From positions 1 to 61,717 of the IMG/VR virus record IMGVR_UViG_3300027896_000040: 61,717 nucleotides of DNA, one strand, 5' to 3'. This document shows, piece after piece, positions 19,439 to 46,750 of the stretch. Every line of letters starts with the position of its first letter. Position 1 is the stretch's first letter. Origin of the DNA: a virus (Duplodnaviria; Caudoviricetes). A program made the position numbers and the translations under genes. Below the pieces are notes generated by a model. The model worked only from the letters and a program-made list of their open reading frames with translations. It was not told the origin of the DNA and ran no database searches.

Positions 19439-20373
19439 TGAAGAGCGTTGTTATAATAATAGCAACGCTCTTTCTGTGCACAAAATTATTTGCTATAGCT
19501 GGTAACATAACATCAATTACTGGCCCCACTCAAATAACTCGTTTAAACGATAAAATAAAAGGGGAGCTACAAACAATAATTGAAATGAATGATATAGTTG
19601 AGACTTTAAACTCTCGTACTGGTATTACATTTGTAGATAATACTATAGTATCGGTAACAGAGCATAGTAAATTAATAGTTGATAGCTTTGTATATGATCC
19701 ATCCAATGGTACAGGCAAGATAAGAATGAAAGCTGCATTAGGTACGATACGTTATACAACCGGTAAGATAGCACATAACAATCATAACAACGTAAACGTA
19801 CAAACACCTACAGCAAGTATTGCTGTCCGCGGTACTGACTTCAGTCTTACTGTTGATGAAATAGGAAAAAGTTTAATTATTTTATTACCTGCACTTAATA
19901 AAGAAAATGGTAAGTATAAGGTGGGGGTTATAGATGTAAAGACTGATGCAGGTTCTGTTACTTTAGATAAAGCTTTTGAAGCTACAATAGTATCAAGTGC
20001 TTTTACACCACCCACACCCCCGGTAGTTCTTAAGATAGATGAAGGTGGTATTGGCAATAACTTATTATTAGACACTCCAAAAGAAATAACAAATGATTCA
20101 ATATCTAAACAATCTCATGAAAATATAGAAAAACAACAAATACAACAAATTTACAATTCAGCTAAAGCGATTGAAGTAATTGATAATTCTAAGTTTGTAT
20201 TCGTTAATGATGGGGTTTATGCTACATTAAAAAATAATATTGGTGGTGATATTATTAGTTTAAAAATACCAGGTACTTCTAATGCAACGTTAATTTATAA
20301 TTATTCTGGAGGTACAGTATCAGCTAAGAACGGTGCTGGGGATGGAATATCAATAAATATTACACAAAGATGA
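19438..20373 (+). CDS. FecR-domain periplasmic protein
   Basis: ITFVDNTIV...VQTPTASIAVRGTDF. Confidence 0.85.
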   Translation: MKSVVIIIATLFLCTKLFAIAGNITSITGPTQITRLNDKIKGELQTIIEMNDIVETLNSRTGITFVDNTIVSVTEHSKLIVDSFVYDPSNGTGKIRMKAALGTIRYTTGKIAHNNHNNVNVQTPTASIAVRGTDFSLTVDEIGKSLIILLPALNKENGKYKVGVIDVKTDAGSVTLDKAFEATIVSSAFTPPTPPVVLKIDEGGIGNNLLLDTPKEITNDSISKQSHENIEKQQIQQIYNSAKAIEVIDNSKFVFVNDGVYATLKNNIGGDIISLKIPGTSNATLIYNYSGGTVSAKNGAGDGISINITQR

Positions 20374-22460
20374 AGTTAAGAATTTTACTTACCGGTTTTG
20401 GTATTTTAATATTTCTTACAACGTTACGTATAGTTGACCCATATCCGATAGAAATATTGAGATTGAAAGGTTTAGATTATTATCAAAGAAAACAACAAAA
20501 AGTTAAAAGCGACAGTATAGAGGTGGTGGAAATAGACGAACAGTCGTTAATGCAATATGGTCAGTGGCCATTTCCAAGAAACATTCTAGCTGATGGTATA
20601 CAAAAAGCATTTGAAAATGAAGCTCAATTAGTTGTACTTCCAATATTATTCAGTGAACAAGATAGGCTGGGTGGTGATAAAGCTTTCTTAGATACGCTTC
20701 AAAAGTATCCAGTTATAACTTCTCAATCGGCTTCTATAAAAGGTAAAGGTACCCCAGTACCAAGAGGTGTTGCAACAATAGGTACAGGAATTAATGATTG
20801 GATATTTAACTATCCAGCTGCAATAGGCCCTACGAAAGAAATTGGCGAATCATCTGCTGGTGTAGGCATGTTACTAACAGCTCCGGAACTCGATGGTGTC
20901 ACTAGAAGAATGCCTCTTATAGTGCAAGTAAACAAAGAAACGTATCCATGCTTACCTTTAGAAGTATTGAGAATGTTTGGAGGTGAAGAATCGTTTCAAG
21001 CTAAAGTAAGCGATGCTGGTGTTGATGCAGTTAGAGTAAAAGGTATAGCGCCGATAAAGACTGATAGTAATGGACGCGTTTGGATTAACTTTAAGTATAA
21101 GTTGGATAGTATTTCTTTTGTTGATAAAGATTGGTCAAAGGTAAAAGGTAAAATAGTTATATTAGCTTTAACTGCTGAAGGGCTTAACAATACTGTAGCT
21201 ACACCGATAGGAATATCTCAAGGGTATGAAGTATCAGCTCAAACATTACAAATGCTCATTGATGGTAATAGATTGCAAAGACCAGCAGAGTTTGACTTAT
21301 ATGAGATAGGTGGAGGGGTGTTATTAGCTGCTTTATTAATTGTAGCTGCTTGTTATTTTAGTTACACTGTAAATGGCGTGGGTATTATAGCTTTATTATG
21401 TGCACCTTTTTATGTCGGATTAAGTTTATTTGAAAACGGTGGGTATCTTGTTGACTACACTTGGCCTACATTAGCTGTACTAGTACCATGGGTGGGTAGT
21501 ATATTCATGCGATTTGTAATGGAGTTTAAATTAAAGCAGCAAATAAAAAAACAGTTTGGTACTTATCTATCAAAAGATATGGTAGATCAACTTCAAAAAG
21601 ATCCAAGTTTACTTAAGTTAGGTGGAGAGACAAAAGAACTAACTATATTATTTTCAGATATTAGAGGTTATACAGCGCTGTCTGAACATTTTGGTAAAGA
21701 CGTGCAAGGGCTTACAAGTCTTATTAATCGTTATATGGATACAATGCTACCTATAATAATGAATAATAAAGGTAATGTAGGAAAATTAATTGGAGATGCA
21801 ATTATGGCTTGGTGGTCAGCTCCAATAGAGGTAAAAAATCAAGCTACGTTAGCGGTAAAAACTGCGCAAGAAATGAAAGTTGCGCTAGATAAGCTTAATA
21901 AAGAATTAATTGCTGAAGGTATACCACCGCTAGGTATTGGAGTGGGTATTAATACGGGGGAGGTGGTTGTTGGTAATATGGGATCTAAAGATAGGTTTAG
22001 TTATGATATCTTAGGAGATGCTGTTAATTTAGCTTCTCGTTTGGAAGGACAATCTAAACCATATGGTGTGTTGATAGTAATAGGAAAAAATACGAAACTA
22101 AGATTAGAAAAAGAAACTGAATGCCTCGGAGATGCTCATATGAAGATGCAAATCTTACCTTTTTTATTTGAATTAGATTGTATTGCAGTGAAAGGAAAAT
22201 CAGAAGGTATTAAAATTTATACTATTCTAGAATCCCCATTAACTGAAAATGTTAACGAAATTATAAAATTACACGATGAGTTATTGTCTAATTATAGAAT
22301 GCAAAGATGGGACAATGCTATACAATTAGCTAAATCGTCAATAACTTATAATCCTGAGTTAGCTCACTATTATCAAAATATGATAGAGAGGATTGACGAA
22401 CTCAGAAATGCTAACTTACCAGCTGATTGGGATGGAGTATTTGTTGCGAAAAGTAAATAA
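20370..22460 (+). CDS. CHASE2-domain class III adenylate cyclase
   Basis: IDEQSL..YGQWPFPR (CHASE2), 3 TM, LFSDIRGYT, KLIGDAIMA, GDAVNLASRLE. Confidence 0.92.
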   Translation: MKLRILLTGFGILIFLTTLRIVDPYPIEILRLKGLDYYQRKQQKVKSDSIEVVEIDEQSLMQYGQWPFPRNILADGIQKAFENEAQLVVLPILFSEQDRLGGDKAFLDTLQKYPVITSQSASIKGKGTPVPRGVATIGTGINDWIFNYPAAIGPTKEIGESSAGVGMLLTAPELDGVTRRMPLIVQVNKETYPCLPLEVLRMFGGEESFQAKVSDAGVDAVRVKGIAPIKTDSNGRVWINFKYKLDSISFVDKDWSKVKGKIVILALTAEGLNNTVATPIGISQGYEVSAQTLQMLIDGNRLQRPAEFDLYEIGGGVLLAALLIVAACYFSYTVNGVGIIALLCAPFYVGLSLFENGGYLVDYTWPTLAVLVPWVGSIFMRFVMEFKLKQQIKKQFGTYLSKDMVDQLQKDPSLLKLGGETKELTILFSDIRGYTALSEHFGKDVQGLTSLINRYMDTMLPIIMNNKGNVGKLIGDAIMAWWSAPIEVKNQATLAVKTAQEMKVALDKLNKELIAEGIPPLGIGVGINTGEVVVGNMGSKDRFSYDILGDAVNLASRLEGQSKPYGVLIVIGKNTKLRLEKETECLGDAHMKMQILPFLFELDCIAVKGKSEGIKIYTILESPLTENVNEIIKLHDELLSNYRMQRWDNAIQLAKSSITYNPELAHYYQNMIERIDELRNANLPADWDGVFVAKSK

Positions 22461-28619: not shown

Positions 28620-29573
28620 TTAATAGTAATTTTTTTGTTGCTTATCGTAAAAGTATATATCAAATTCTGGCTTGTTTCTCAAGTCACATTCATTGACTAT
28701 TTCGAATATTTTTTGCTGAACCCAATTATCGGGAGCTAAATTGTTGCCTGGTCTACCAGGCAAAGTAAACTTACCATGCCCTACCATCTCTACGTATGTT
28801 ATAATAAACTTTTGATTAGCATAAGGATAGTAATCAAACGTCATATACTTACTGCATAATGTTCTAAACATATAATCTTCATTAGAAGACCAAGGGAGAT
28901 AATAGTCTAATGAACCAACATGATGATCACGATATGTACCGTTTTTACCTTTGATATGGGAGCTATCTAAATGGTGCAATCTACAATCTGGATTATATTT
29001 GAAAAGCTCTTTATATGATGACTTTCTCCATATACAAGGTTGTACGCTAAATTGATGCATATGCCCATCACCAACATAATATAGTTCATCACTTTTAAAG
29101 CCATATTTTTCACTAAAAGGAAACAACTTAAAAAAGTTTGGAGGTTGCTGTGTTTTATTGTGGTTTTCTGGCTGAAACGATGAAAATGTATAATTGTCTA
29201 CTTTTTCATTTGTAAAGATATTAATAAGTTTGTTAAGTGATTCAAAATCCAAATCACTAGTTAGCATATAATCTTCACAAAAGTAAAAGATAAAATCTTC
29301 TGTAATCGAATCAATAGCATGTGCCATTACAGGAGCAAAATGATGACCACCTGGATCAAAAGGTATTTGTGGCGACAAATAATTTACTTTATCACAATAT
29401 GGCAAGTTTGAAACATCATTAAATCTGTTTAGTGCAACTGAAATGTTAATGTTATCTAAACCCACATATTTATCAAAATACTTTAAACAAATACCTGCTA
29501 AAGGTATAGTTCTTTCATTGCAATAAATTACAAAGTGTGTATTAGGTACTTTGTTGTGGTTCTTTAAAATCAT
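28620..29573 (-). CDS. Probable GT-A glycosyltransferase
   Basis: FYFCEDY, FSVQPCIWRK. Confidence 0.6.
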   Translation of the reverse strand: MILKNHNKVPNTHFVIYCNERTIPLAGICLKYFDKYVGLDNINISVALNRFNDVSNLPYCDKVNYLSPQIPFDPGGHHFAPVMAHAIDSITEDFIFYFCEDYMLTSDLDFESLNKLINIFTNEKVDNYTFSSFQPENHNKTQQPPNFFKLFPFSEKYGFKSDELYYVGDGHMHQFSVQPCIWRKSSYKELFKYNPDCRLHHLDSSHIKGKNGTYRDHHVGSLDYYLPWSSNEDYMFRTLCSKYMTFDYYPYANQKFIITYVEMVGHGKFTLPGRPGNNLAPDNWVQQKIFEIVNECDLRNKPEFDIYFYDKQQKNYY

Positions 29574-30333
29574 GTAAGAAACTTAAATCAAGATCTTTAT
29601 CGCCTGGGTTAGCTCTATTTCTGCAATCTAGCTTTTCTATAGGATAGTTTTGAGTATCCGGGGCAATATAATTAACAAATCTTTTATTTTCAAATGTTAC
29701 TTCCCAAACTCTTGGGATAGTATAGATTACCGATTTTGAATCGTGAATCTTTTGCTCATACTTAAAAACTTCACCCCAATTGTTACCATGGACATGTGTA
29801 AGAACAAAGTACTCATTAAGTCTGTTGATAATAACTTCAGCCTTCTGTCTCCATTCTGGACCATCAAGCCAATGTATTTCTAAAATGATACCAGTACAAT
29901 ACTTTGCAATTTCAGCAATATCTGTTTTTGCAAAGTAATCATACTCAGAGCCTTCAGTATCAATTTTTAATAATACATCCCCCTTAATGCCTAACTCTTT
30001 ATAAAGTTGAACAACCTCTTTAGCTGGTATATTATTAACATTAGTACCAGCTAAACCTAAACCTACCTTGTAAAAATAAATTTCTGGATCTTCTTTAGCA
30101 GGACGATCAACGAATGGGTCAAACATGTAAACTGGTTTCTTAAACCTTTTAGCAAAGTCAAACTCATATCTAGTCTCTCCACCCACACCAAAGGTAAATA
30201 AGCATGAACACTTATCTATCATCATTTGTGAACAGACATAACCACCATCTGAGTGCTCATTATCTCTTTCACTGTATGGTCCAACCCTGACTTTCTTCTC
30301 GTTAATAGTTTTTGGTTTTAATAAATGAAACAT
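29542..30333 (-). CDS. FkbM-like SAM methyltransferase
   Basis: DGGY, FGVG, LKIDTEGSE, HVHGNN. Confidence 0.8.
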   Translation of the reverse strand: MFHLLKPKTINEKKVRVGPYSERDNEHSDGGYVCSQMMIDKCSCLFTFGVGGETRYEFDFAKRFKKPVYMFDPFVDRPAKEDPEIYFYKVGLGLAGTNVNNIPAKEVVQLYKELGIKGDVLLKIDTEGSEYDYFAKTDIAEIAKYCTGIILEIHWLDGPEWRQKAEVIINRLNEYFVLTHVHGNNWGEVFKYEQKIHDSKSVIYTIPRVWEVTFENKRFVNYIAPDTQNYPIEKLDCRNRANPGDKDLDLSFLHDFKEPQQST

Positions 30334-30337
30334 AAAT

Positions 30338-31237
30338 TTATTGTATTACATCTTCATCATATACTTTATCAAACCCACAGTTAATATAGTTTGTATCAAA
30401 ATCTTTTCTAACTACACCGTGTGTTGGGTTTTCTTTACAAGCATTTCTATAAACAGCAAACCCAGTATGTGATGGCATTGATAATTGTCTTTTAATAGGA
30501 TAATGAGATGAAGGTGTACCTATATCTTTACCATTATGTTTAACTAAACTATTAACTGGTATGAAGTTAGTTTCATCATCATAGGCTAACATAATAAAGT
30601 GTATTTTTTTAGCTCTTAAATAGTAGCTTATTGTTAAATCATCAGATTTAGCTACACCTAAAAATTCATCAGTAAAGAAATCATCTTGTATAAACTTACG
30701 TCTATATGTTACTGAATGCCAATGACCTGGTATAGTGGCATAGGTGTCATGTTTAACTGGAAAGTAAACACCATGAGAAGATATTAGAATAAACTTTTTA
30801 TTACCATTATCATCTATAAATGTTCTTTTTTCTAATGGATTATCTCCTCTAAAACCAACAGCATAGTTTGGATATTTTGGAAGCTTTTTAAGAATATACT
30901 CAATCATACTATCTTCATATGCATGATCATCATCTAAAGCTATAATAATATCTTCAGGGTCGTTAATAATGTTGAACCCACCTACTACCTTTTCAATAGG
31001 ACCCCTATCTGTGTTTATTCTATTTAAAATTAACTTTGGATTTTCATCTGCTAACTTTTGTAACTCAGCTGGTATAATGTAAGGGGAGTTATCTGGGACG
31101 TACACATAAGGTATATTAAATATAACCTTATACTCTTTATCAGTTTTTTGATTGAGCAATGAAGTTATATTTTCAATTACAGAAGGTACATCTGCCAATC
31201 GTTTAGGTACTGTTGTCAAAGATATGAATATTCTCAT
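30338..31237 (-). CDS. GT-A glycosyltransferase, paralog of N-domain of 26804..28618
   Basis: Shared TDRGPIEKV, LDDDH, IPGHWHSVTY. Confidence 0.75.
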   Translation of the reverse strand: MRIFISLTTVPKRLADVPSVIENITSLLNQKTDKEYKVIFNIPYVYVPDNSPYIIPAELQKLADENPKLILNRINTDRGPIEKVVGGFNIINDPEDIIIALDDDHAYEDSMIEYILKKLPKYPNYAVGFRGDNPLEKRTFIDDNGNKKFILISSHGVYFPVKHDTYATIPGHWHSVTYRRKFIQDDFFTDEFLGVAKSDDLTISYYLRAKKIHFIMLAYDDETNFIPVNSLVKHNGKDIGTPSSHYPIKRQLSMPSHTGFAVYRNACKENPTHGVVRKDFDTNYINCGFDKVYDEDVIQ

Positions 31238-31243
31238 AAAAAA

Positions 31244-32524
31244 TTATTTATTAATGATATGTTCTATACGTTCTGCCCAGCCTTGTGATTTACTATGAGC
31301 CCAGATAACCCACTTATGAGGCTTCTTATCAGTTAAGAAGAACCGTTCAAAACTTGTCCAGTTATCTTTACGCGACATAATTTCTTTGACTTGTGCTTCA
31401 GTTAAATCTTCTCTTTGAACTGCAATACCGTTTTCATCATCAAACGCTACAACCCAAAAGTCATAATCATTCAATTTAAAATTACTCTTATCAAAGTTAA
31501 CTAAACAATAGAAAGAAGATGCAAAAGACTTCTCCCACTCTTCCTCATTATTAATTGGAGGGTTAGGTGGAAAGTTATTATGAACTGTGTACATCTGCAC
31601 TGCTTTACGCTTGAAATGCACACCAGCATACTTCTCATAATCTCTTAACGTTCTCACTGTACCAAGATCATAGCCAGTTAAATCTACATCATCATCTTTT
31701 TGAGTACGTAAAAGGTTACGAATACGCTTCCATGCTGCTTGTTGCTGTGCATACCAATCAACACCCCGCTTATATTGATCGTCCCATACTAACTTACCAG
31801 ATCTTTCCTCTCTCATTGTTGCATGCCATATAACTATCTTATGTGGGTGGAATAGATCGTAACCATACGTAAACGAACGCACAGTCATGTTGAGCTCTTC
31901 ACCACTAAACACAATACCTGGATCGTGCTTAATGTCTTTAGCCCATTGAGTGCGAGCAAACAAAAAGTGTCCAGAAATGAATCTTGAATGCACTGGCTCT
32001 GTTCTTGATTGCCAACCTTGTAGTAAGCTTGGACGGATAAAGATGGTACCGTGTGGATAGAAGCAAGCAAACTGCTGTTGCCAAGGCTCCTGACAACGAC
32101 TTTTTGGATCATTGAACGGGTCATAGTATGGTAGATAAGCTGTAAGGATTGGTTTGAAGCCTTTGTCTTCTAGTCCTTTGTGCATACTAATCAAAGTTTC
32201 ATCCCAATCCTTAGTAAATCTATGGTGAGAGTCTAATTGTAATAGATACGTCTCATCTGTAATCATATTGTTGATGCGTTGGCGAGCGTATGGTAATCCT
32301 TTAGCTTCCGTATAAAGCATCTCATCTATCTTAAAACGTGAATCGTTTCTAAATTCATCAATGTTATCAAATTTATCATCCGGGTGATACTGCCTGCAAA
32401 TACCGAAAACTAAACGTGATGGGTCCTTTGCCTGTGCTAAGCAATCTTTAATTGTTGGTACTAATTCTGGCTCTCTGTAAGCTGGTAAGTGTACCAAAAT
32501 AGTTTCTTTGTTTTGCTTTTTCAT
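31244..32524 (-). CDS. GT60-like polypeptide GlcNAc transferase
   Basis: AYREPE, LQLDSHHRF..DWD, FSGEE. Confidence 0.8.
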   Translation of the reverse strand: MKKQNKETILVHLPAYREPELVPTIKDCLAQAKDPSRLVFGICRQYHPDDKFDNIDEFRNDSRFKIDEMLYTEAKGLPYARQRINNMITDETYLLQLDSHHRFTKDWDETLISMHKGLEDKGFKPILTAYLPYYDPFNDPKSRCQEPWQQQFACFYPHGTIFIRPSLLQGWQSRTEPVHSRFISGHFLFARTQWAKDIKHDPGIVFSGEELNMTVRSFTYGYDLFHPHKIVIWHATMREERSGKLVWDDQYKRGVDWYAQQQAAWKRIRNLLRTQKDDDVDLTGYDLGTVRTLRDYEKYAGVHFKRKAVQMYTVHNNFPPNPPINNEEEWEKSFASSFYCLVNFDKSNFKLNDYDFWVVAFDDENGIAVQREDLTEAQVKEIMSRKDNWTSFERFFLTDKKPHKWVIWAHSKSQGWAERIEHIINK

Positions 32525-33777
32525 ACGTATGGTAAATTGTTCTCAATAATTTTGCATTCCCAACCTTTTGACTTACTATGCGGCCATAATGTCCATTTAG
32601 TTGGTCTTACATCTGTACTAAACTCTCTCCAAATGTGAATAAACTTATCATTTGGATCTGTTTGCATAAGAGCCTTTAATTCATTTTCATCAATATCTTT
32701 TCTAAACAAGTCTGTATTCTTTTCGTCCTTGAACACACATACAATGAAATCGTAATCAGGCTCTGGTAAGTCAGGCTTATAAACGTCAATACAGTGTTTG
32801 GTCCAGCTGCAAAGACTCTTATCAAACTCTTCTCTTGTTGTGAATGGTACTGGGGGGGTTGACTCATCTAAACAATTCTTATGGAAGCGTCTTGTTTTAA
32901 AGTATACACCAGCAAAGTTTTCAAAATCAGTTAACGTTTTTTTTGTACCTAAACCGTAAGCACCGAAGTTAATTTGATTTGGATTTTCACCATCAATACC
33001 TAAAAGAATCTTAACTCTCTTATACGAGATTAAATTGATATCATTCCAATTCTTATGATCATCCCAATGCTTCTTTTGATTAGCTCTGGTGTATTGATGC
33101 CAAATAAACACCTTATGTGGTGCAAACAAATCGTAACCTTTAGTAAATGATCTCACTGCTAACGATATTTCCTCACCGTGAAAGTAAAGATCTGGATCGT
33201 ACGGCACCTCTAAACACCACTTACCTTGTGTAAAAATAAAATGAGCTGAAAATCCTCTGCTTGGGGCTGGTAACGTACGATTCTGCCAATCTCTTAATGT
33301 AGAAGGTCTTAGAAAAATCACCCCTTCTGGTAAGAATCTATCGTAGTTAACTTGCCAAGGCTCCATAACCCTACCATTCGGTTCAGTTGTTGGATCGTAA
33401 CTTGGAAGATAACTACTGAGTAATGGCTTGGTGACACCACTCTCTTTTAAACTTTTATACATTTCAATAGCAGTAACATCCCAATCCTGTGCAAATCTAT
33501 GATGCGAGTCTAACTGTAAAGTGTATGTCTCACCATCGTACTGCTGCTGTATTTTACTTCTTATCCAACAAGCACCTTTTGTTTCAGTGTAAGGTACGTC
33601 TAAGATTTTAACTTGCGGTAAATTTTTAATCTGTGAAATATCTTCATCACCAGCATGTTGCCACCCGATGCAAATATGTAATGATTTTGGGTGTTTAGCT
33701 TTTGCGATACAATCTAAAACTGTTGGCACTAATTCAGGGTCTCTGTAAGAAGCTATTTGAACAAAAATCGTATGCAT
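32521..33777 (-). CDS. GT60-like polypeptide GlcNAc transferase
   Basis: IFVQIASYRDPE, LQLDSHHRF..DWD, EVPYDP.LYFHGEE. Confidence 0.85.
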   Translation of the reverse strand: MHTIFVQIASYRDPELVPTVLDCIAKAKHPKSLHICIGWQHAGDEDISQIKNLPQVKILDVPYTETKGACWIRSKIQQQYDGETYTLQLDSHHRFAQDWDVTAIEMYKSLKESGVTKPLLSSYLPSYDPTTEPNGRVMEPWQVNYDRFLPEGVIFLRPSTLRDWQNRTLPAPSRGFSAHFIFTQGKWCLEVPYDPDLYFHGEEISLAVRSFTKGYDLFAPHKVFIWHQYTRANQKKHWDDHKNWNDINLISYKRVKILLGIDGENPNQINFGAYGLGTKKTLTDFENFAGVYFKTRRFHKNCLDESTPPVPFTTREEFDKSLCSWTKHCIDVYKPDLPEPDYDFIVCVFKDEKNTDLFRKDIDENELKALMQTDPNDKFIHIWREFSTDVRPTKWTLWPHSKSKGWECKIIENNLPYV

Positions 33778-39167: not shown

Positions 39168-39250
39168 TGGTGCCCTGGGAGGGATTCGAACCCTCAAAAA
39201 GCTGCGGTCTAAACGCAGTAGCTGTACCAATTTGCATGTCTCACCGGGGC
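39168..39250 (-). tRNA. tRNA-Leu(TAG), short variable arm, enlarged D-loop
   Basis: CTGCG-TTTAGAC-CGCAG. Confidence 0.85.
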
Positions 39251-39257
39251 ATAAAAA

Positions 39258-39434: not shown

Positions 39435-39440
39435 ATAAAA

Positions 39441-39514
39441 TGGTAGGGCCTTCCGGACTTGAACCGATATATGAGAGTTTGCAGACTCTTGCCTGGCCGT
39501 TTGGCTACTGATGC
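39441..39514 (-). pseudogene. Chimeric pseudo-tRNA-Cys(GCA)
   Basis: Acceptor strands GCATCAG/AGGCCCT do not pair; 6-nt anticodon loop. Confidence 0.65.
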
Positions 39515-39520
39515 ATAAAA

Positions 39521-39597: not shown

Positions 39598-39598
39598 A

Positions 39599-39683
39599 TG
39601 GTGCTCCAGCGGGGAATCGAACCCCGAAAACGACAGATTTTAAGTCTGTAAGCTGTACCGATTCGCTACTACGTCACTGGAGC
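39599..39683 (-). tRNA. tRNA-Leu(TAA), short variable arm, enlarged D-loop
   Basis: ACAGA-CTTAAAA-TCTGT. Confidence 0.85.
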
Positions 39684-39692
39684 GTAAAAAAA

Positions 39693-39779
39693 CGGAAAGG
39701 GAGGGATTCGAACCCCCGGATGCCTTAAAGCATCGGAAGTTTAGTAAACTTCTGCTATAGACCGCTCAGCCACCTTTCC
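39693..39779 (-). tRNA. tRNA-Ser(ACT)
   Basis: GAAGT-TTACTAA-ACTTC, long variable arm, G73, no encoded CCA. Confidence 0.85.
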
Positions 39780-39828
39780 ATAAGAGTGAAATGGTTGTAC
39801 CAGTTTCCTTATTCATATACCCAAACTT

Positions 39829-39922: not shown

Positions 39923-40016
39923 TGGTAGTCCTGCTCGGAATTGAACCGAGGCTCGGCGCCAATCTAGCGCACACAGTTTATAAGACTGTCGGTGCTTCCA
40001 ATTACACTACAGGACT
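39923..40016 (-). tRNA. tRNA-Ile(TAT) with long variable arm
   Basis: ACAGT-CTTATAA-ACTGT. Confidence 0.8.
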
Positions 40017-40022
40017 AAAAAA

Positions 40023-40096
40023 TGGTTGCCCCCGATCGATTCGAACGATCACAAAGCGGGTCAAAGCCGCGTATCCTACCTTTAGATGAGGGGGCA
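40023..40096 (-). tRNA. tRNA-Gln(TTG)
   Basis: Loop CTTTGAC. Confidence 0.9.
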
Positions 40097-40102
40097 ATAA
40101 AA

Positions 40103-40177
40103 TGGTCGGCGCGGCAAGATTCGAACTTGCGACCATTCCGTCCCAAACGGAACATTCTACCGCTGAACTACGCGCCG
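40103..40177 (-). tRNA. tRNA-Pro(TGG)
   Basis: Loop TTTGGGA. Confidence 0.9.
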
Positions 40178-40239
40178 GTTTTAATAATAAAATTATTAAT
40201 ATATTAGTTGATCTTATCAACTACCAAATGCTTAAATTT

Positions 40240-40478
40240 ACTGTGCCAATACTGGTGATGTGTGGGGTACGTACTGGTAGCTGCTGCAGCATCGCCAGCC
40301 TCTCGTGGTCGAGCAGCCCGCTCACATTTTCCTCTCTTTTTAGTAGGCCAAAAGCAAGGAACCGACTACGGTTACCCCGCCGCGCGTAATTGATGTCGCT
40401 CGATTCTGTTTCCGCAGAAGTCATCACCGCCGATGTTACTTGGTCCGGCTGCGTCGTATTTCAACGATATCGAGCGAT
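40240..40478 (-). ncRNA. Unassigned highly structured RNA with two candidate pseudoknots
   Basis: GC-rich island with at least 8 complementary segments between tmRNA and tRNA-Pro. Confidence 0.7.
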
Positions 40479-40482
40479 AAAT

Positions 40483-40871
40483 TGGTGGAGCTGCCGGGAT
40501 TTGAACCCGGGTGTTCCGTAACTTTCCGATCAGTTTCTACAAGCTTAGTAGTAATAATAAGACCATACCTTAACTACAAGATATTGGAATTTTCAGAATA
40601 CGTGTAACGTTATTTTACCTACTCTGATAATCTCAAACAACGTTCTCACTGTTTAACAGCTACACAATATAGTGAGAATCTATTGTATAACTGATCGCAG
40701 ATTAAGCTGCGAGTGGAGTAACTTCTGGAACAAAAGCTTCGGAAAGCTTTGCGAAGTAACCCTTTACTTTGCTTGTTAATTTAGCATTTATGTTTTTGCT
40801 AGTTTTGAAAGGTCTAACAACCTTGCTTGCTTCTAATAAGTCTGGTACAGAATAGAATCCATAACAGCCCC
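40483..40871 (-). ncRNA. ssrA: tmRNA
   Basis: GGGGCTG/CAGCTCC-ACCA acceptor with G3-U70, T-arm, tag ORF (A)AKLTSKVKGYFAKLSEAFVPEVTPLAA*. Confidence 0.92.
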
Positions 40872-40905
40872 AAAAAATGTGTCAAATAACTAAAAATGTA
40901 TTATA

Positions 40906-41331
40906 TTAATGTTCCAATTGTTTTAAAATTCTATCAAAATCTAAAAAATCTTCATAATAGTTTATACCTTTTGTTTGCCCATTTTTGTCTTGTTAATTCT
41001 AAAAACAAAACCATTTTTTCCCTTTAAATCATCCCAACCTACGTATATGACTTTATCATTTGGTAACAAACAAGCAAACACATCCACGTCTTTTTTTGTA
41101 TATGTAAATTCATAATTTGGACCAGATTTATGTATTGAAAAAGGAATCAAATTATTACTGTTAATAGATGCTAAATTTTTTACTTGTATTTTAATACATT
41201 TATAATCAACAATTGTTATTATATCCACTTTACAAAGATCTCCCAATTCTTTAAATATTGGTAAACCTTTTTTTGTTAACCCCAACGCTACCGCTATCTC
41301 TCCAATATTTCCTTTTTTGTTTACTGTGCAT
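40906..41331 (-). pseudogene. Frameshifted PD-(D/E)XK homing endonuclease (I-Ssp6803I-like family)
   Basis: MHSKQKGNIGE...VDII...IQVK; +1 at A-run 41313-18 and -1 at A-run 40982-86. Confidence 0.7.
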
Positions 41332-41381: not shown

Positions 41382-41647
41382 TGGTGGGGGCATAGGGACT
41401 TGAACCCTAAACCTACTGCTTAACATACCACTATAGCTTTCGCTACATAGCTTTCGCTACTGCGTGGTCTGGACTATGCCTTCACCATTTGACAGGTGGG
41501 TGATTATAGTCTCTACACCTTCCCTTTCGGGCTTGGCTCGGCGTTGGGAGGTTAAACCGTTCACCGAATTTACACCATTCACGTATAATCTTTCGATTAT
41601 AGTGCTCCTATTAAAGGCAGCTGCTCTAACCATTGAGCTATACCCCC
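41382..41647 (-). tRNA. tRNA-Lys(TTT), split by group I intron (exons 41614-41647, 41382-41423)
   Basis: Spliced loop CTT|TTAA in stem GCTGC/GCAGT; GGGGGTA/TGCCCCC acceptor. Confidence 0.85.
41424..41613 (-). mobile_element. ORF-less group I intron (IC3-like, ~190 nt)
   Basis: AAATTCGGTGAA (P), CGCCGAGCCAAG (Q), GTAGAGACTATA (R), GGCATAGTCC (S), terminal G. Confidence 0.85.
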
Positions 41648-41785
41648 ATAAAATAATGGCACCTCTAATCTGGTGCCCAGAGAATTGAAACCTTCGTGCA
41701 CGGCAATATCTAGAAGAGCAGTACACTACATGTCACTCTGTCGCGAAATTGTTAAAAGAACATAACAATTATATCTATGTTCCTA

Positions 41786-44361: not shown

Positions 44362-44478
44362 TGGCAGGAGCGGTAAGACTTTAACTTACGACTGATCTAA
44401 AGTACGCTTTAGACCCGGCTCAACTTCAAACCTAAGCTTCTCGCTCGTCAGCTTATCGCCTTTGGCACCAGCGCTCCT
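44362..44478 (-). ncRNA. 117-nt atypical tRNA-like RNA
   Basis: Perfect acceptor AGGAGCG/CGCTCCT-GCCA and T-arm; two hairpins in D region; 8-nt anticodon loop; long variable arm. Confidence 0.75.
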
Positions 44479-44579: not shown

Positions 44580-44672
44580 TGGTGGGCAAGGAGGGAATCG
44601 AACCCCCAATGTTACTCGAAAGAGAACGGATTTACAGTCCGTTGCTACACAACCAATAGTAGCCTCTTACCC
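44580..44672 (-). tRNA. tRNA-Tyr(GTA)
   Basis: ACGGA-CTGTAAA-TCCGT; 5' end overlaps HNH stop codon. Confidence 0.88.
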
Positions 44673-45404
44673 TTTATAGCATTTTCTAGGTATAGGGGTA
44701 TATTCAGGTATAAATTTTTTCCATAATTTACACAAACTCGTTAAAGAGTAATTATATTCTTTTTGTGTGTGTAAGAAATCTCTGACTGACCTACAACCGC
44801 TACTTAAAAAATTATTATATAGTTTTCTTGCAAAAACTTGTTTATTATGCTGCCTTTCTAGTTGTCTTTTTTTGTTTAAAACGTCTTTTTCCTGTTTGAT
44901 TTTCTTACGCGTAGCTTTTTTAACTTGTTTTTGGTAATTTAGTTCCTGTCTTTTATTAAAACTATCAAAATTAATAACTCTACCTTTACGCCAACCTTCA
45001 GGTATAATGTCGGTTTTGTTAATGCGTTTAGACTGTCTTAAGACAGGGTTATGTATCCATTTCATATTAAAACATTGATTGTTACTGCCTTTATTTGCTA
45101 TTGAATTATGTTTACCTATTGCTAGAGCATGTTTACGTTTTAGCCAACCATAAAGTTTATTATTAAATCTTCCACAGCACATTTTATGAGCAGCAAACAC
45201 TAACAAGGAGTTATTAGGGTATATCTTTACAAGCAATTGATGTGCAACATAATGCTCTTCCGGAGTCAAAGCAACTAGATTATTGGGATCATCAGACCCA
45301 CCCATACATTTGGGTATAACGTGATGCTTTTCAGTGTAACCTTCTAAAGAAGTTCTACTCTTAGCTTTTTCAATTAATCTTTCATATATTAAACTGTAGT
45401 TCAC
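44667..45404 (-). CDS. Free-standing HNH homing endonuclease (MobE-like)
   Basis: EKHHVIPKCMGGSDDPNNLVALTPEEHYVAHQLL; GWRKGR DNA-binding motif. Confidence 0.88.
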   Translation of the reverse strand: MNYSLIYERLIEKAKSRTSLEGYTEKHHVIPKCMGGSDDPNNLVALTPEEHYVAHQLLVKIYPNNSLLVFAAHKMCCGRFNNKLYGWLKRKHALAIGKHNSIANKGSNNQCFNMKWIHNPVLRQSKRINKTDIIPEGWRKGRVINFDSFNKRQELNYQKQVKKATRKKIKQEKDVLNKKRQLERQHNKQVFARKLYNNFLSSGCRSVRDFLHTQKEYNYSLTSLCKLWKKFIPEYTPIPRKCYKG

Positions 45405-45457
45405 TCTGTTAATATTTATGCTAGAACAGGTCAACCTCATGACTTTTAATTAAAAAA

Positions 45458-46105: not shown

Positions 46106-46750
46106 TTAATCAATATGTAAATAAGGTTTCCATTCATCTCTTATGGTGAAGTTTTCTGGGATAATGGAAGCGTACATACTGCTAATTTTTGGATTAACTT
46201 CTTTACCATCGACATCAAAGTAAGGGTATTTGTTATCCTTGGCACTATTGCAAGAACGGCAAGCAAGTACGAGGTTAAAGTCATGATTAGTACCACCTAA
46301 AGATCTCGGATAAAGATGGTCTTTAGTTGCTTCTGACATAGAAACCTTTTCATAGCAGTACTGGCAAATACCTTTATAAACAGAGTAAAGATATTTGAGT
46401 GAAACATATTCACCTGTTTTACGTCTGTAACCGAAATGGTAATTACACAATAGTATGGTTGGTACTGCCCATTGCTTTTCAGTACCGATTACTGGGTCTG
46501 GAGCACTACGAAGACAAGGTTGGTCCTCGAAAAGAGATACTTCATTATTGTACCAACGTAAAGTGCTTGGTGTGTTTCCAAGTTGAATATCAGTACCAGA
46601 CCACGATACAATGTTACCCATTGCATCGATACCTTTAACTCTATCAGTCATAAGGTGTCTAATAGCAGCTCTAGCTGTAACTAAAGCAATAGCTTGGTGG
46701 TTGCGGTTGAGTAAAAGAGAAGTTTTTTCTTGTGGTTGTACTGCTTTCAT
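46106..46750 (-). CDS. HNH endonuclease (McrA-type)
   Basis: CQYC...TKDHLYPRSLGG....NLVLACRSCNSAKDN. Confidence 0.88.
   Translation of the reverse strand: MKAVQPQEKTSLLLNRNHQAIALVTARAAIRHLMTDRVKGIDAMGNIVSWSGTDIQLGNTPSTLRWYNNEVSLFEDQPCLRSAPDPVIGTEKQWAVPTILLCNYHFGYRRKTGEYVSLKYLYSVYKGICQYCYEKVSMSEATKDHLYPRSLGGTNHDFNLVLACRSCNSAKDNKYPYFDVDGKEVNPKISSMYASIIPENFTIRDEWKPYLHID

What the first reader, a model, noticed from the sequence alone, without database searches (positions are those of the whole stretch)
40240..40478. Unassigned ~240-nt doubly pseudoknotted RNA directly behind tmRNA
A GC-rich island in an AT-rich genome. Minus-strand pairings: TCGCTCGAT(40477-69)/ATCGAGCGA(40404-396) encloses three hairpins. 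GGTGATG(40428-22) pairs with distant CATCACC(40260-54). GGGGTAAC(40378-71)/GTACCCC(40270-64) is crossed by CCAGTAC(40277-71)/GTATTGG(40252-46). Also GGCTGCT/AGCAGCT and TTCCT/AGGAA. Flanking tRNA-like units would release it by processing. Large RNAs of unknown function (GOLLD, ROOL) occur in phage tRNA regions but are much longer; I cannot assign this one.
Basis: partly seen in the sequence, partly recalled or inferred. Interest (0 to 1): 0.7.

Follow-up and report, generated by a model that had tools for sequence, protein, structure and literature searches.

The report
Orphan GC-rich stretch behind phage tmRNA
A 247-base GC-rich non-coding stretch just after a freshwater phage's tmRNA gene is real and fits no known RNA family, but the proposed double-pseudoknot fold is no better than chance, so it is at most a loosely structured RNA found so far only in this phage.

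Summary
The window is a 61.7-kb fragment of an uncultured freshwater phage, distantly related to Methylophilales phage Melnitz and Pelagibacter phage HTVC008M. It carries a minus-strand array of 22 tRNAs and a one-piece tmRNA.

The stretch 40236-40482 (-) is real: 52% GC against 36% for the window. It matches no Rfam family.

The proposed architecture is not supported:
- Helix counts equal those of shuffles.
- The MFE z-score is -1.07, and a two-level pseudoknot proxy gives -0.89. The neighbouring pseudoknotted tmRNA and an intron-split tRNA give -5.1 and -4.0.
- A natural variant deletes 34 nt, including one arm of a claimed pseudoknot helix.

No homologue turned up in any collection. The exception is one 55-nt piece (87% identity) in a lake metagenome.

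The features that look non-random are:
- An 84-nt four-way junction 5 nt after the tmRNA CCA (z -2.2).
- A hypervariable linker.
- Two variant substitutions that each turn A.C into G-C beside a helix.

Best reading (0.4): a lineage-restricted, modular, non-coding 3' extension of the tmRNA transcript. Main rival (0.33): decaying relic DNA. Interest is low to moderate.

The parts
40483..40871 (-). One-piece tmRNA (context). Its CCA end lies 5 nt before the first helix of the stretch.
   Evidence: ARAGORN. Rfam RF00023, 109.7 bits. MFE z -5.12.
40900..40927 (-). Promoter-like site (TTTAAA, 16-nt spacer, TATAAT) upstream of the tmRNA. Likely start of the transcript that would run into the stretch.
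   Evidence: Consensus scan. A match to a consensus only; function is inferred.
40395..40478 (-). 5' module: an 84-nt four-way junction (cloverleaf shape). A 9-bp closing helix (10 bp in variant X3) encloses three hairpins.
   Evidence: Fold of 40393-40480: -27.2 kcal/mol, z -2.18, 7 of 200 shuffles as good. X3 changes at 40478 and 40441 each turn A.C into G-C. No tRNA-model hit.
40361..40394 (-). Hypervariable 34-nt linker. It holds the GGGGTAAC arm and most of a small terminator-like hairpin (scan coordinates 40373-40360).
   Evidence: Deleted in the X3 contig; both X2 substitutions in the stretch (40367, 40381) lie here. 3 of 9 variable events fall in these 34 nt, p 0.003. Terminator-like site. 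Fold z -0.03.
40330..40360 (-). 31-nt hairpin (TCCTT.GCTTT ... AAAAG.AGGA).
   Evidence: Fold: z -1.39 for 40328-40362. No variants seen in X2 or X3.
40242..40326 (-). 3' module: three hairpins closed by a 4-bp stem. It holds a 55-nt core (40265-40319), the only piece seen in another lineage.
   Evidence: Fold of 40236-40360: z -1.06. An X7 151-nt contig matches 40265-40319 with 7 differences. No variants in X2 or X3.
40178..40235 (-). AT-rich spacer with an 8-bp hairpin and a promoter-like site (TTGATA, 17-nt spacer, AATAAT; 40220-40192) before tRNA-Pro. Marks the 3' limit of the stretch.
   Evidence: X7 and X8 contigs match tRNA-Pro plus this spacer (40095-40205 and 40099-40235). The X8 record runs 67 nt further without matching.
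40103..40177 (-). tRNA-Pro(UGG), the first gene of the downstream tRNA run (context).
   Evidence: ARAGORN. Rfam, 67.4 bits.

Best explanation
The 247 nt are a lineage-restricted, non-coding 3' extension of the tmRNA transcription unit. They are built of local modules, not one compact knotted fold.

Inferred course of events:
- Transcription starts at the promoter-like site before the tmRNA and runs through the stretch to the AU-rich hairpin in front of the tRNA-Pro promoter-like site.
- Maturation of the tmRNA 3' end releases the rest as a roughly 250-300-nt by-product or small stable RNA.

This would make it comparable to the species I and II RNAs that are cut out of the T4 tRNA-cluster transcript.

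The first module is an 84-nt four-way junction. It sits where the next tRNA of an array would sit, and it could serve as an RNase P-type cleavage signal that defines a short tmRNA trailer. The 34-nt linker is dispensable.

Shown: position, composition, absence of a family match, local fold of the 5' module, and the variant pattern. Inferred: transcription, processing and any function.
For: Composition. GC is 0.52 against 0.357 for the window. Other short gaps in the array range from GC 0.23 to 0.48.

Other GC islands. Seven other islands with GC of at least 0.5 lie between 37.7 and 46 kb outside ARAGORN calls. I recognised 4 as RNA-like: 39171-91, 39601, 41451-511 and 44401. I did not examine the other 3.

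Position. The closing helix starts 5 nt after the tmRNA CCA. Neighbouring tRNAs in the array are about 7 nt apart (sequence).

Local fold. The 5' module folds alone into a four-way junction, z -2.18, with 7 of 200 shuffles as good.

Variants.
- In haplotype X3 both substitutions in that module (minus-strand A to G at 40478 and 40441) turn an A.C into a G-C next to a helix. The X3 MFE is a clean chain of modules.
- Variation concentrates in the linker between modules: 3 of 5 events inside the stretch, p 0.02.
- The hairpin and the 3' module show no change in X2 or X3.
- A 55-nt core recurs at 87% identity in another lake sample.

Not coding.
- Open frames occur on both strands in several frames, and the 34-nt deletion shifts the 68-aa frame.
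- Pfam finds nothing.
- Protein searches return only the same ORF at 99% plus repeat proteins.

Signals. Promoter-like sites flank the unit.

Precedent. T4 species I and II RNAs come from the tRNA-cluster precursor (PMC2330249, passages seen).
Against: No homologue was found, so there is no covariation.

The whole-stretch MFE is not better than shuffles, z -1.07, and the 3' half gives -1.06. The tmRNA and the intron-split tRNA next door give -5.12 and -4.02.

The z -2.18 of the 5' module is one of six sub-folds tried and would not survive correction.

The stretch carries 5 of 9 variable events in a quarter of the laid kilobase, p 0.046. That means it is less constrained than the tmRNA and tRNA-Pro.

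The two A.C to G-C changes are not compensatory pairs, and their direction is unknown.

A relative's contig (X8) keeps tRNA-Pro and the spacer but stops matching at 40235. The stretch is therefore absent or strongly diverged there.

The four-way junction lacks tRNA D-loop and T-loop signatures and gets no tRNA-model score.

Transcription is not shown.
Confidence: 0.4

Rival explanations
1. Non-functional relic. The stretch is decaying remains of former RNA genes (tRNA-like units, an intron) or of GC-richer foreign DNA picked up together with the tmRNA. It is transcribed, if at all, as inert spacer.
For: No homologue in any collection. Pairings and MFE are at chance level. A 34-nt deletion polymorphism and a variant density about four times that of the flanks, p 0.046. 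The X8 relative diverges exactly at the 3' boundary. The modules are tRNA-sized: 84, about 68 and 85 nt. Contigs of other organisms in X2 and X3 match the tmRNA 3' end plus 15 nt of the stretch, 40468-40513. That fits capture from, or exchange with, a bacterial ssrA locus.
Against: 52% GC in a 36% GC genome should erode unless the DNA is recent or selected. No tRNA-model score down to 9.7 bits, no group I intron or RNase P score. No paralogy to anything else in the window; longest match is 13 nt. No protein-fragment signal. Variation avoids the hairpin and the 3' module.
Confidence: 0.33
2. This is one compact ~240-nt RNA held together by two pseudoknots, a new large structured RNA or ribozyme released by processing of the flanking tRNA-like units.
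For: All listed helices exist and their order crosses twice. Helices of 7 or more with G.U allowed are enriched, 21 against 12, p 0.014. GC island on the array strand. No known family.
Against: Watson-Crick helix counts are at chance (p 0.31-0.33). MFE z is -1.07. The two-level proxy gives z -0.89, with no second-level pairing left. Pseudoknotted controls next door give z -5.1 and -4.0. Haplotype X3 lacks 40361-40394, including one arm of the GGGGTAAC/GTACCCC helix. In its MFE the 9-bp helix replaces the GGTGATG/CATCACC pairing. The 9-bp helix and GGTGATG/CATCACC also compete in the wild-type MFE.
Confidence: 0.1
3. Remnant or second copy of a permuted (two-piece) tmRNA. The tmRNA T-arm and CCA would act as the acceptor piece, and the GGGCTG...TCGAC segment at about 40319 as the start of a coding piece, as in the relatives Melnitz and HTVC008M.
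For: Melnitz and HTVC008M carry permuted alpha-type tmRNAs. The Rfam tmRNA_permuted model aligns 40314-40510 at 20.6 bits, E 0.025 in the small search.
Against: The score is far below the gathering score of 47 and comes mostly from the T-arm of the intact one-piece tmRNA. ARAGORN finds no tmRNA in 40178-40560; with relaxed thresholds it gives only implausible calls. By my reading, position 1 of the acceptor is mismatched, the D-loop analogue is missing, no P2 partner exists, and no frame ends in a typical tag.
Confidence: 0.03
4. A small protein gene: the 68-aa GTG-start ORF at 40224-40427 (-).
For: The frame is open. The same ORF was called in another assembly (P0002, 99% identity).
Against: The 34-nt deletion in X3 shifts the frame. 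Long open frames occur in several frames on both strands, as expected at 52% GC. 0 Pfam families at E up to 10. The other 3 of 4 phmmer hits are tandem-repeat proteins whose scores add up over 3-11 weak stretches.
Confidence: 0.03

Closest known systems
Bacteriophage T4 species I and II RNAs (small stable RNAs encoded in the T4 tRNA gene cluster)
   Same: Non-tRNA RNAs that sit inside a phage tRNA cluster on the same strand and are cut from a precursor shared with tRNAs (PMC2330249, Discussion passage seen). No assigned family match here either.
   Different: The T4 RNAs are shown to be expressed and processed; that their function is still unknown is my recollection. Here nothing is shown beyond sequence. 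This stretch follows a tmRNA.
Group I intron in a tRNA gene (an example lies in this same window, 41445-41624 inside a split tRNA at 41384-41651)
   Same: A GC-rich, pseudoknotted RNA of about 200 nt in the same array. It shows that this phage carries structured RNA beyond tRNAs.
   Different: The neighbour scores 32.8 bits, E 1e-6, with Rfam Intron_gpI and MFE z -4.02. The stretch gets no Intron_gpI hit at E up to 10. It lies between genes, not inside one, and has z -1.07.
Intervening and trailer segments of tmRNA precursors (permuted alpha-type tmRNAs of phages Melnitz and HTVC008M)
   Same: Non-conserved RNA directly after the tmRNA CCA end that has to be removed during maturation (alignments).
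   Different: In the permuted genes the segment is followed by a coding piece and is AT-rich. Here the tmRNA is one-piece and complete (109.7 bits), and the segment is GC-rich and 247 nt long.
GOLLD and ROOL large RNAs
   Same: Large RNAs of unknown function that often lie near tRNAs in phage genomes (recalled, not from a call).
   Different: They are much longer, and as far as I recall both are Rfam families. Nothing in the window matched them at gathering score, nor in the stretch at E up to 10.

Membership tests
tRNA (Rfam RF00005) or tRNA pseudogene | Covariance-model score at or near the gathering score of 29 bits | tested here: not met
   29 matches at E up to 10 in the record, down to 9.7 bits; 0 lie in 40236-40482. 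None in the 371-nt scan. ARAGORN finds none, also at 80% thresholds.
tRNA (Rfam RF00005) or tRNA pseudogene | Cloverleaf secondary structure with a closing acceptor stem | tested here: met
   40395-40478 folds into a closing helix plus three hairpins. But the closing stem is 9 bp, the middle loop 13 nt, and the third hairpin loop 6 nt.
tRNA (Rfam RF00005) or tRNA pseudogene | Conserved D-loop and T-loop nucleotides, and a 3' discriminator plus CCA (or a site for its addition) | tested here: not met
   Read from the sequence: the loops are TGAAAT and CGGAAA, and the 3' strand is followed by CATC. Which loop motifs define a tRNA is recalled knowledge.
Group I intron (RF00028) | Covariance-model match to the P3-P9 core | tested here: not met
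   No hit at E up to 10 in 40150-40520. The same kind of scan finds the neighbour intron at 32.8 bits. The whole-record search by another tool missed even that one, so only one search counts.
Group I intron (RF00028) | Interrupts a host gene whose exons flank it | tested here: not met
   It lies between a complete tmRNA and a complete tRNA-Pro.
Bacterial RNase P RNA (RF00010 and relatives) | Covariance-model match | tested here: not met
   No RNase P family at E up to 10. RF00010 finds nothing in the record, while 11 of 14 control genomes ring.
Bacterial RNase P RNA (RF00010 and relatives) | A circularly permuted arrangement of the core | not testable with these tools
   Two short motifs reminded me of the P4 strands, in reversed order (recalled resemblance only). 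A permuted sequence could not be submitted.
Permuted tmRNA (RF04321) | Covariance-model score of at least 47 bits, with a coding piece holding a resume codon and tag frame | tested here: not met
   20.6 bits, mostly from the T-arm of the one-piece tmRNA. No ARAGORN call. Melnitz and HTVC008M score 113.4 and 90.6 bits as positive controls.
Small stable RNAs of phage tRNA clusters (T4 species I/II kind) | Encoded inside a phage tRNA cluster, on the same strand, non-coding | tested here: met
   Coding potential rejected.
Small stable RNAs of phage tRNA clusters (T4 species I/II kind) | Co-transcribed with tRNAs and processed to a stable product | not testable with these tools
   No RNA data were available. 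Only consensus promoter-like and terminator-like sites.
GOLLD / ROOL | Match to the family models; length of several hundred nt | tested here: not met
   No such match. The stretch is 247 nt. That both families are in Rfam is recalled.

The most novel reading that the evidence does not exclude
The stretch encodes a new phage RNA in two parts.
- An 84-nt four-way junction mimics a pre-tRNA, so that RNase P cuts 4-5 nt behind the tmRNA CCA. This would be a 'tRNA punctuation' module that a phage uses to mature its own tmRNA.
- A separate 3' module has a 55-nt core that is conserved across lake phage lineages and acts as a small stable RNA of its own.
Probability: 0.1. Interest if true: 0.55.

Novelty: new member of a known kind. 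Interest (0 to 1): 0.25.

Why it matters
If the stretch is a real RNA, it would add a tmRNA-linked example to the few unassigned stable RNAs known from phage tRNA clusters. It could also show how a phage matures a tmRNA that is not followed by a tRNA.

As it stands, the main value is negative. A list of complementary segments in a GC-rich island is not evidence of a knotted fold. The same tests that fail here succeed clearly on the tmRNA and the group I intron a few hundred bases away.

The window itself is of some interest as a poorly sampled freshwater relative of the Melnitz/HTVC008M phages, with an unusually rich and partly non-canonical RNA gene array.

Tried and rejected
**Homologue hunts, all empty**
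- blastn against 50,697 phage records. The 723-nt query gave no match at E 1e-5. The 247-nt query at E up to 10 gave 9 records, with matches of only 22-41 nt at E of 3 or more.
- Exact or degenerate patterns in viral contigs: 0 hits.
- Translated-frame scans of the stretch: 15 pattern hits in viral contigs, 390 in metagenome contigs and 229 in genome contigs. None was confirmed.
- One degenerate-pattern hit in a Conexibacter MAG shares only 17 of 18 nt. By my translation it lies in a coding frame, and about one chance hit was expected.
- Anchors through neighbours. The 284-aa and DUF932 ORFs have no related loci. The 284-aa ORF has a single 96% homologue.
- tmRNA 3' end pattern: hits only the two att-like ends of one unrelated provirus.
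- tRNA-Pro patterns. One gave an unrelated phage, L009. The other gave a true relative, L010, but its contig starts 23 nt before tRNA-Pro, so it says nothing about the stretch.
- A single-sequence covariance model (R1) found nothing in 4 of 4 records, including Melnitz and HTVC008M. This is a weak test.
- The 1413-aa ORF has no phage match.

**Sequencing runs**
- No RNA holder is listed, so expression is untested.
- Parts of the laid kilobase without cover in X7 and X8 are not evidence.

**Readings rejected**
- Similarity to the HA (helicase-associated) domain. P0004 is an HA-repeat protein, but the 68-aa ORF itself has 0 Pfam hits. The phmmer score sums 3 weak stretches.
- Paralogy within the window: longest match 13 nt.
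- The opposite strand as the RNA: z -1.32.
- A hammerhead or C/D-box reading of the GTGATGA...GAAAC motif. No stem II is possible, no D box is present, and there is no Rfam hit.

- The search of earlier findings was not open.

Full report
**Context.** The window is a whole IMG/VR virus record of 61,717 bases with no terminal repeats, estimated at about 25% complete. ARAGORN finds 22 tRNAs and one tmRNA, all on the minus strand between 37.9 and 50.9 kb. Rfam at gathering score confirms the tmRNA (109.7 bits, full length) and 20 tRNAs. The only well-conserved protein I found is an adenylate-cyclase-like ORF (20370-22460). It is 39-42% identical to proteins of Methylophilales phage Melnitz and Pelagibacter phage HTVC008M, both Kyanoviridae. 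Near-identical DNA occurs in freshwater and aquatic metagenomes from 5 studies. The phage is sparsely sampled: several of its proteins have no relative in GenBank phages or IMG/VR.

**The observation.** The finding lies between the tmRNA (40483-40871) and tRNA-Pro (40103-40177). The GC-rich part is 40236-40482 on the minus strand: 247 nt at GC 0.522, against 0.357 for the window. Behind it lies a 58-nt AT-rich spacer. One helix is weaker than written: GGGGTAAC/GTACCCC has 6 perfect pairs. The sequence description is therefore correct.

**Is it more than chance?** No, for the structure as proposed.
- Against 500 dinucleotide-preserving shuffles, Watson-Crick helices of 6 or more number 6 against 4.7 expected (p 0.33).
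- Helices of 7 or more number 2 against 1.1 (p 0.31).
- The longest helix, 9 bp, has p 0.08.
- Only helices of 7 or more that allow G.U are enriched: 21 against 12, p 0.014.
- The MFE of the 247 nt is -76.1 kcal/mol against -71.1 +/- 4.7 for shuffles, z -1.07, with 29 of 200 as good.
- A proxy that folds once and then folds the leftover bases again, to catch crossing helices, gives z -0.89 over 300 shuffles. It finds no second-level pairing.
- The opposite strand gives z -1.32.

One could argue that pseudoknots hide the signal from nested folding. The controls next door say otherwise. The tmRNA (389 nt) gives z -5.12 with 0 of 100 shuffles as good. The intron-split tRNA (268 nt) gives z -4.02 with 0 of 200.

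**Known families.**
- A scan of 40150-40520 against all 4227 Rfam models at E up to 10, with the laxest filters, returns the end of the tmRNA and three or four chance-level hits.
- Among these is tmRNA_permuted at 20.6 bits, against a gathering score of 47. It rests mostly on the T-arm of the intact tmRNA.
- The tRNA model finds 29 places in the record down to 9.7 bits, none of them in the stretch.
- RNase P type A finds nothing.
- Intron_gpI finds nothing in the stretch. It does find a group I intron at 41445-41624 (32.8 bits, E 1e-6) inside a tRNA that ARAGORN missed.
- ARAGORN finds neither a tRNA nor a tmRNA in 40178-40560. With thresholds lowered to 60-70% it gives only implausible calls.

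The "unassigned" part of the title holds.

**Homologues.** I could not find any, so the decisive covariation test could not be done. Empty results:
- blastn against GenBank phages.
- Three patterns in viral contigs.
- Six-pattern translated scans of viral, metagenome and genome contigs, with 15, 390 and 229 pattern hits and none confirmed.
- Protein-level searches with the 68-aa frame. These returned only the same ORF at 99% (P0002) and three tandem-repeat proteins whose scores add up many weak stretches.
- A single-sequence covariance model against Melnitz, HTVC008M and two other records, 0 of 4 matched.
- One genome hit that is a chance match.

These methods need exact words, so relatives below about 85-90% identity could have been missed.

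**Population variants.** Laying contigs of four runs on 40000-41000 gave the most useful data.
- Run X2 holds a 1124-nt contig covering 40123-40919 with three differences. Two are in the stretch (plus-strand 40367 T>C and 40381 C>T).
- Run X3 holds a 1416-nt contig that skips 40361-40394 (34 nt) and differs at 40441 and 40478 in the stretch. It also differs at 40807, 40813 and 40960, and has a 1-nt insertion elsewhere.
- So 5 of 9 variable events fall in the 247 nt, a quarter of the kilobase, p 0.046.
- 3 of 9 fall in the 34-nt segment, p 0.003.
- The deletion removes the GGGGTAAC arm of one claimed pseudoknot helix.
- The hairpin 40330-40360 and the 3' part 40242-40326 show no change.
- The two X3 changes in the 5' part are minus-strand A to G. 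One lets 40478 pair with C40395, extending the 9-bp helix to 10. The other turns an A.C into G-C in a CCGA/TCGG hairpin.
- These are suggestive. They are not compensatory double changes, and the ancestral state is unknown.

Two further observations bound the element.
- An X8 contig of 223 nt matches tRNA-Pro and the spacer (40099-40235, 7 differences). Its remaining 67 nt do not match at 80% or better. I infer that this relative lacks the stretch or has it strongly diverged.
- An X7 contig of 151 nt matches only 40265-40319, with 7 differences in 55.

**Anatomy.** Taken in pieces, the stretch is modular.
1. 40395-40478 folds alone into a four-way junction: a 9-bp closing helix, then three hairpins of 4, 7 (with one internal mismatch) and 4-5 pairs. 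Energy is -27.2 kcal/mol, z -2.18, with 7 of 200 shuffles as good. It starts 5 nt after the tmRNA CCA, about where the next tRNA of an array would start. It is cloverleaf-shaped but is not a tRNA by any test.
2. 40361-40394 is the variable linker. It holds most of a small hairpin that is followed by a T-run and scores as terminator-like.
3. 40330-40360 is a 31-nt hairpin.
4. 40242-40326 can form three hairpins closed by 4 pairs, but the fold is no better than shuffles (z -1.06 for the 3' 125 nt).

The MFE of the natural deletion form is exactly this chain of modules. Promoter-like sites lie before the tmRNA (40927-40900) and before tRNA-Pro (40220-40192). These are consensus matches only.

**Most likely explanation (0.4).** The stretch is a lineage-restricted, non-coding 3' extension of the tmRNA transcript made of local modules. 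It is released when the tmRNA 3' end is matured. It is comparable in kind to the species I and II RNAs that come out of the T4 tRNA-cluster precursor (PMC2330249; I saw the search listing and passages).

The four-way junction may act as a tRNA-like cleavage signal that leaves the tmRNA with a short trailer. This step, like transcription itself, is inference.

Arguments for some function:
- The GC content.
- 4 of the 7 other GC-rich islands outside ARAGORN calls in the array are RNA-like elements. The other 3 were not examined.
- The array-like spacing.
- The fold of the 5' module.
- Variation that spares the modules.

Arguments against: no homologues, weak thermodynamics, and above-average variability.

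**Rivals.**
- Relic DNA (0.33) explains the same negatives equally well, as well as the boundary seen in X8. It explains the GC content only if the DNA is recent.
- A remnant of a permuted tmRNA gets 0.03. It is tempting because Melnitz and HTVC008M have permuted tmRNAs, but it fails on score, acceptor, P2 and tag.
- A 68-aa protein gets 0.03. It fails on the frameshifting deletion, on open frames in many frames of both strands, and on the lack of any family.

**Novelty and verdict.** The stretch is a real, unassigned, GC-rich non-coding island, and it is not in Rfam 15. I found nothing in print on an RNA behind a phage tmRNA, but only two literature searches were made and supplements were closed.

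It is best filed as one more unassigned RNA-like element of a phage tRNA cluster, not as a new class of knotted RNA. Interest is 0.25. It would rise if relatives or transcripts show the four-way junction to be conserved and cut.

Noticed in passing
window 41384-41651 (-): A tRNA that ARAGORN and Rfam gathering missed. It is split in the anticodon loop by a group I intron of about 190 nt (Intron_gpI 32.8 bits, E 1e-6, below the gathering score of 50; MFE z -4.02). The loop reads CTTT...TAA, so tRNA-Lys(UUU) is my guess. No Lys tRNA is otherwise called.
   Followed up: partly
window 39598-39691, 39170-39252, 39435-39520 (-): Three gaps in the array hold sub-threshold tRNA-like genes (tRNA model 27.0, 23.5 and 17.6 bits). 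They have acceptor stems, T-arms and CCA ends but odd D-arm regions. Two share an AATYGGTACAGCT motif. By my reading the anticodon loops suggest Leu(UAA), Leu(UAG) and Cys(GCA).
   Followed up: partly
window 44362-44478 (-): A 117-nt multi-branched RNA between tRNA-Asp and tRNA-Trp. It has a 6-7-bp acceptor-like closing stem, a T-arm-like hairpin and a GCCA end. The tRNA model scores 19.5 bits on its 3' two-thirds only. MFE z -1.42. Identity unknown.
   Followed up: partly
window 40483-40871 (-); L004 1195-1647; L005 1463-1804: This phage has a one-piece tmRNA with an unusually long 27-aa tag. Its nearest GenBank relatives, Melnitz and HTVC008M, carry permuted alpha-type tmRNAs (113.4 and 90.6 bits). 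In Melnitz a glutamine riboswitch (52.8 bits) directly follows the tmRNA.
   Followed up: partly
window 40468-40513: In runs X2 and X3, longer contigs of other organisms (2.2 kb, and 11.4 kb at about 3 times the phage depth) match the tmRNA 3' end plus 15 nt of the stretch with 3-4 differences. The 11.4-kb contig has a second 19-nt copy 1.36 kb away. This could be a host ssrA locus or an att-like site. The contigs could not be read.
   Followed up: no
window 39692-39780 and 39923-40016 (-): ARAGORN calls a tRNA-Ser with anticodon ACT and a 94-nt tRNA-Ile with anticodon TAT. Both are unusual for bacteria-type sets and may point to odd decoding or mis-assigned identities.
   Followed up: no
window 44667-45440 and 46106-46750 (-): Two free-standing HNH endonuclease ORFs sit among the tRNA genes (Pfam HNH E 8.7e-4 and 7.8e-11). 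This recalls the homing endonuclease genes in the T4 and T5 tRNA clusters.
   Followed up: no
window 28620-33777 (-) and 20370-22460 (+): A run of glycosyltransferase ORFs, including two PF11397 GlcNAc-transferase-like proteins (E 9e-55 and 2e-68). Also an adenylate/guanylate-cyclase-like ORF shared with Melnitz and HTVC008M.
   Followed up: no
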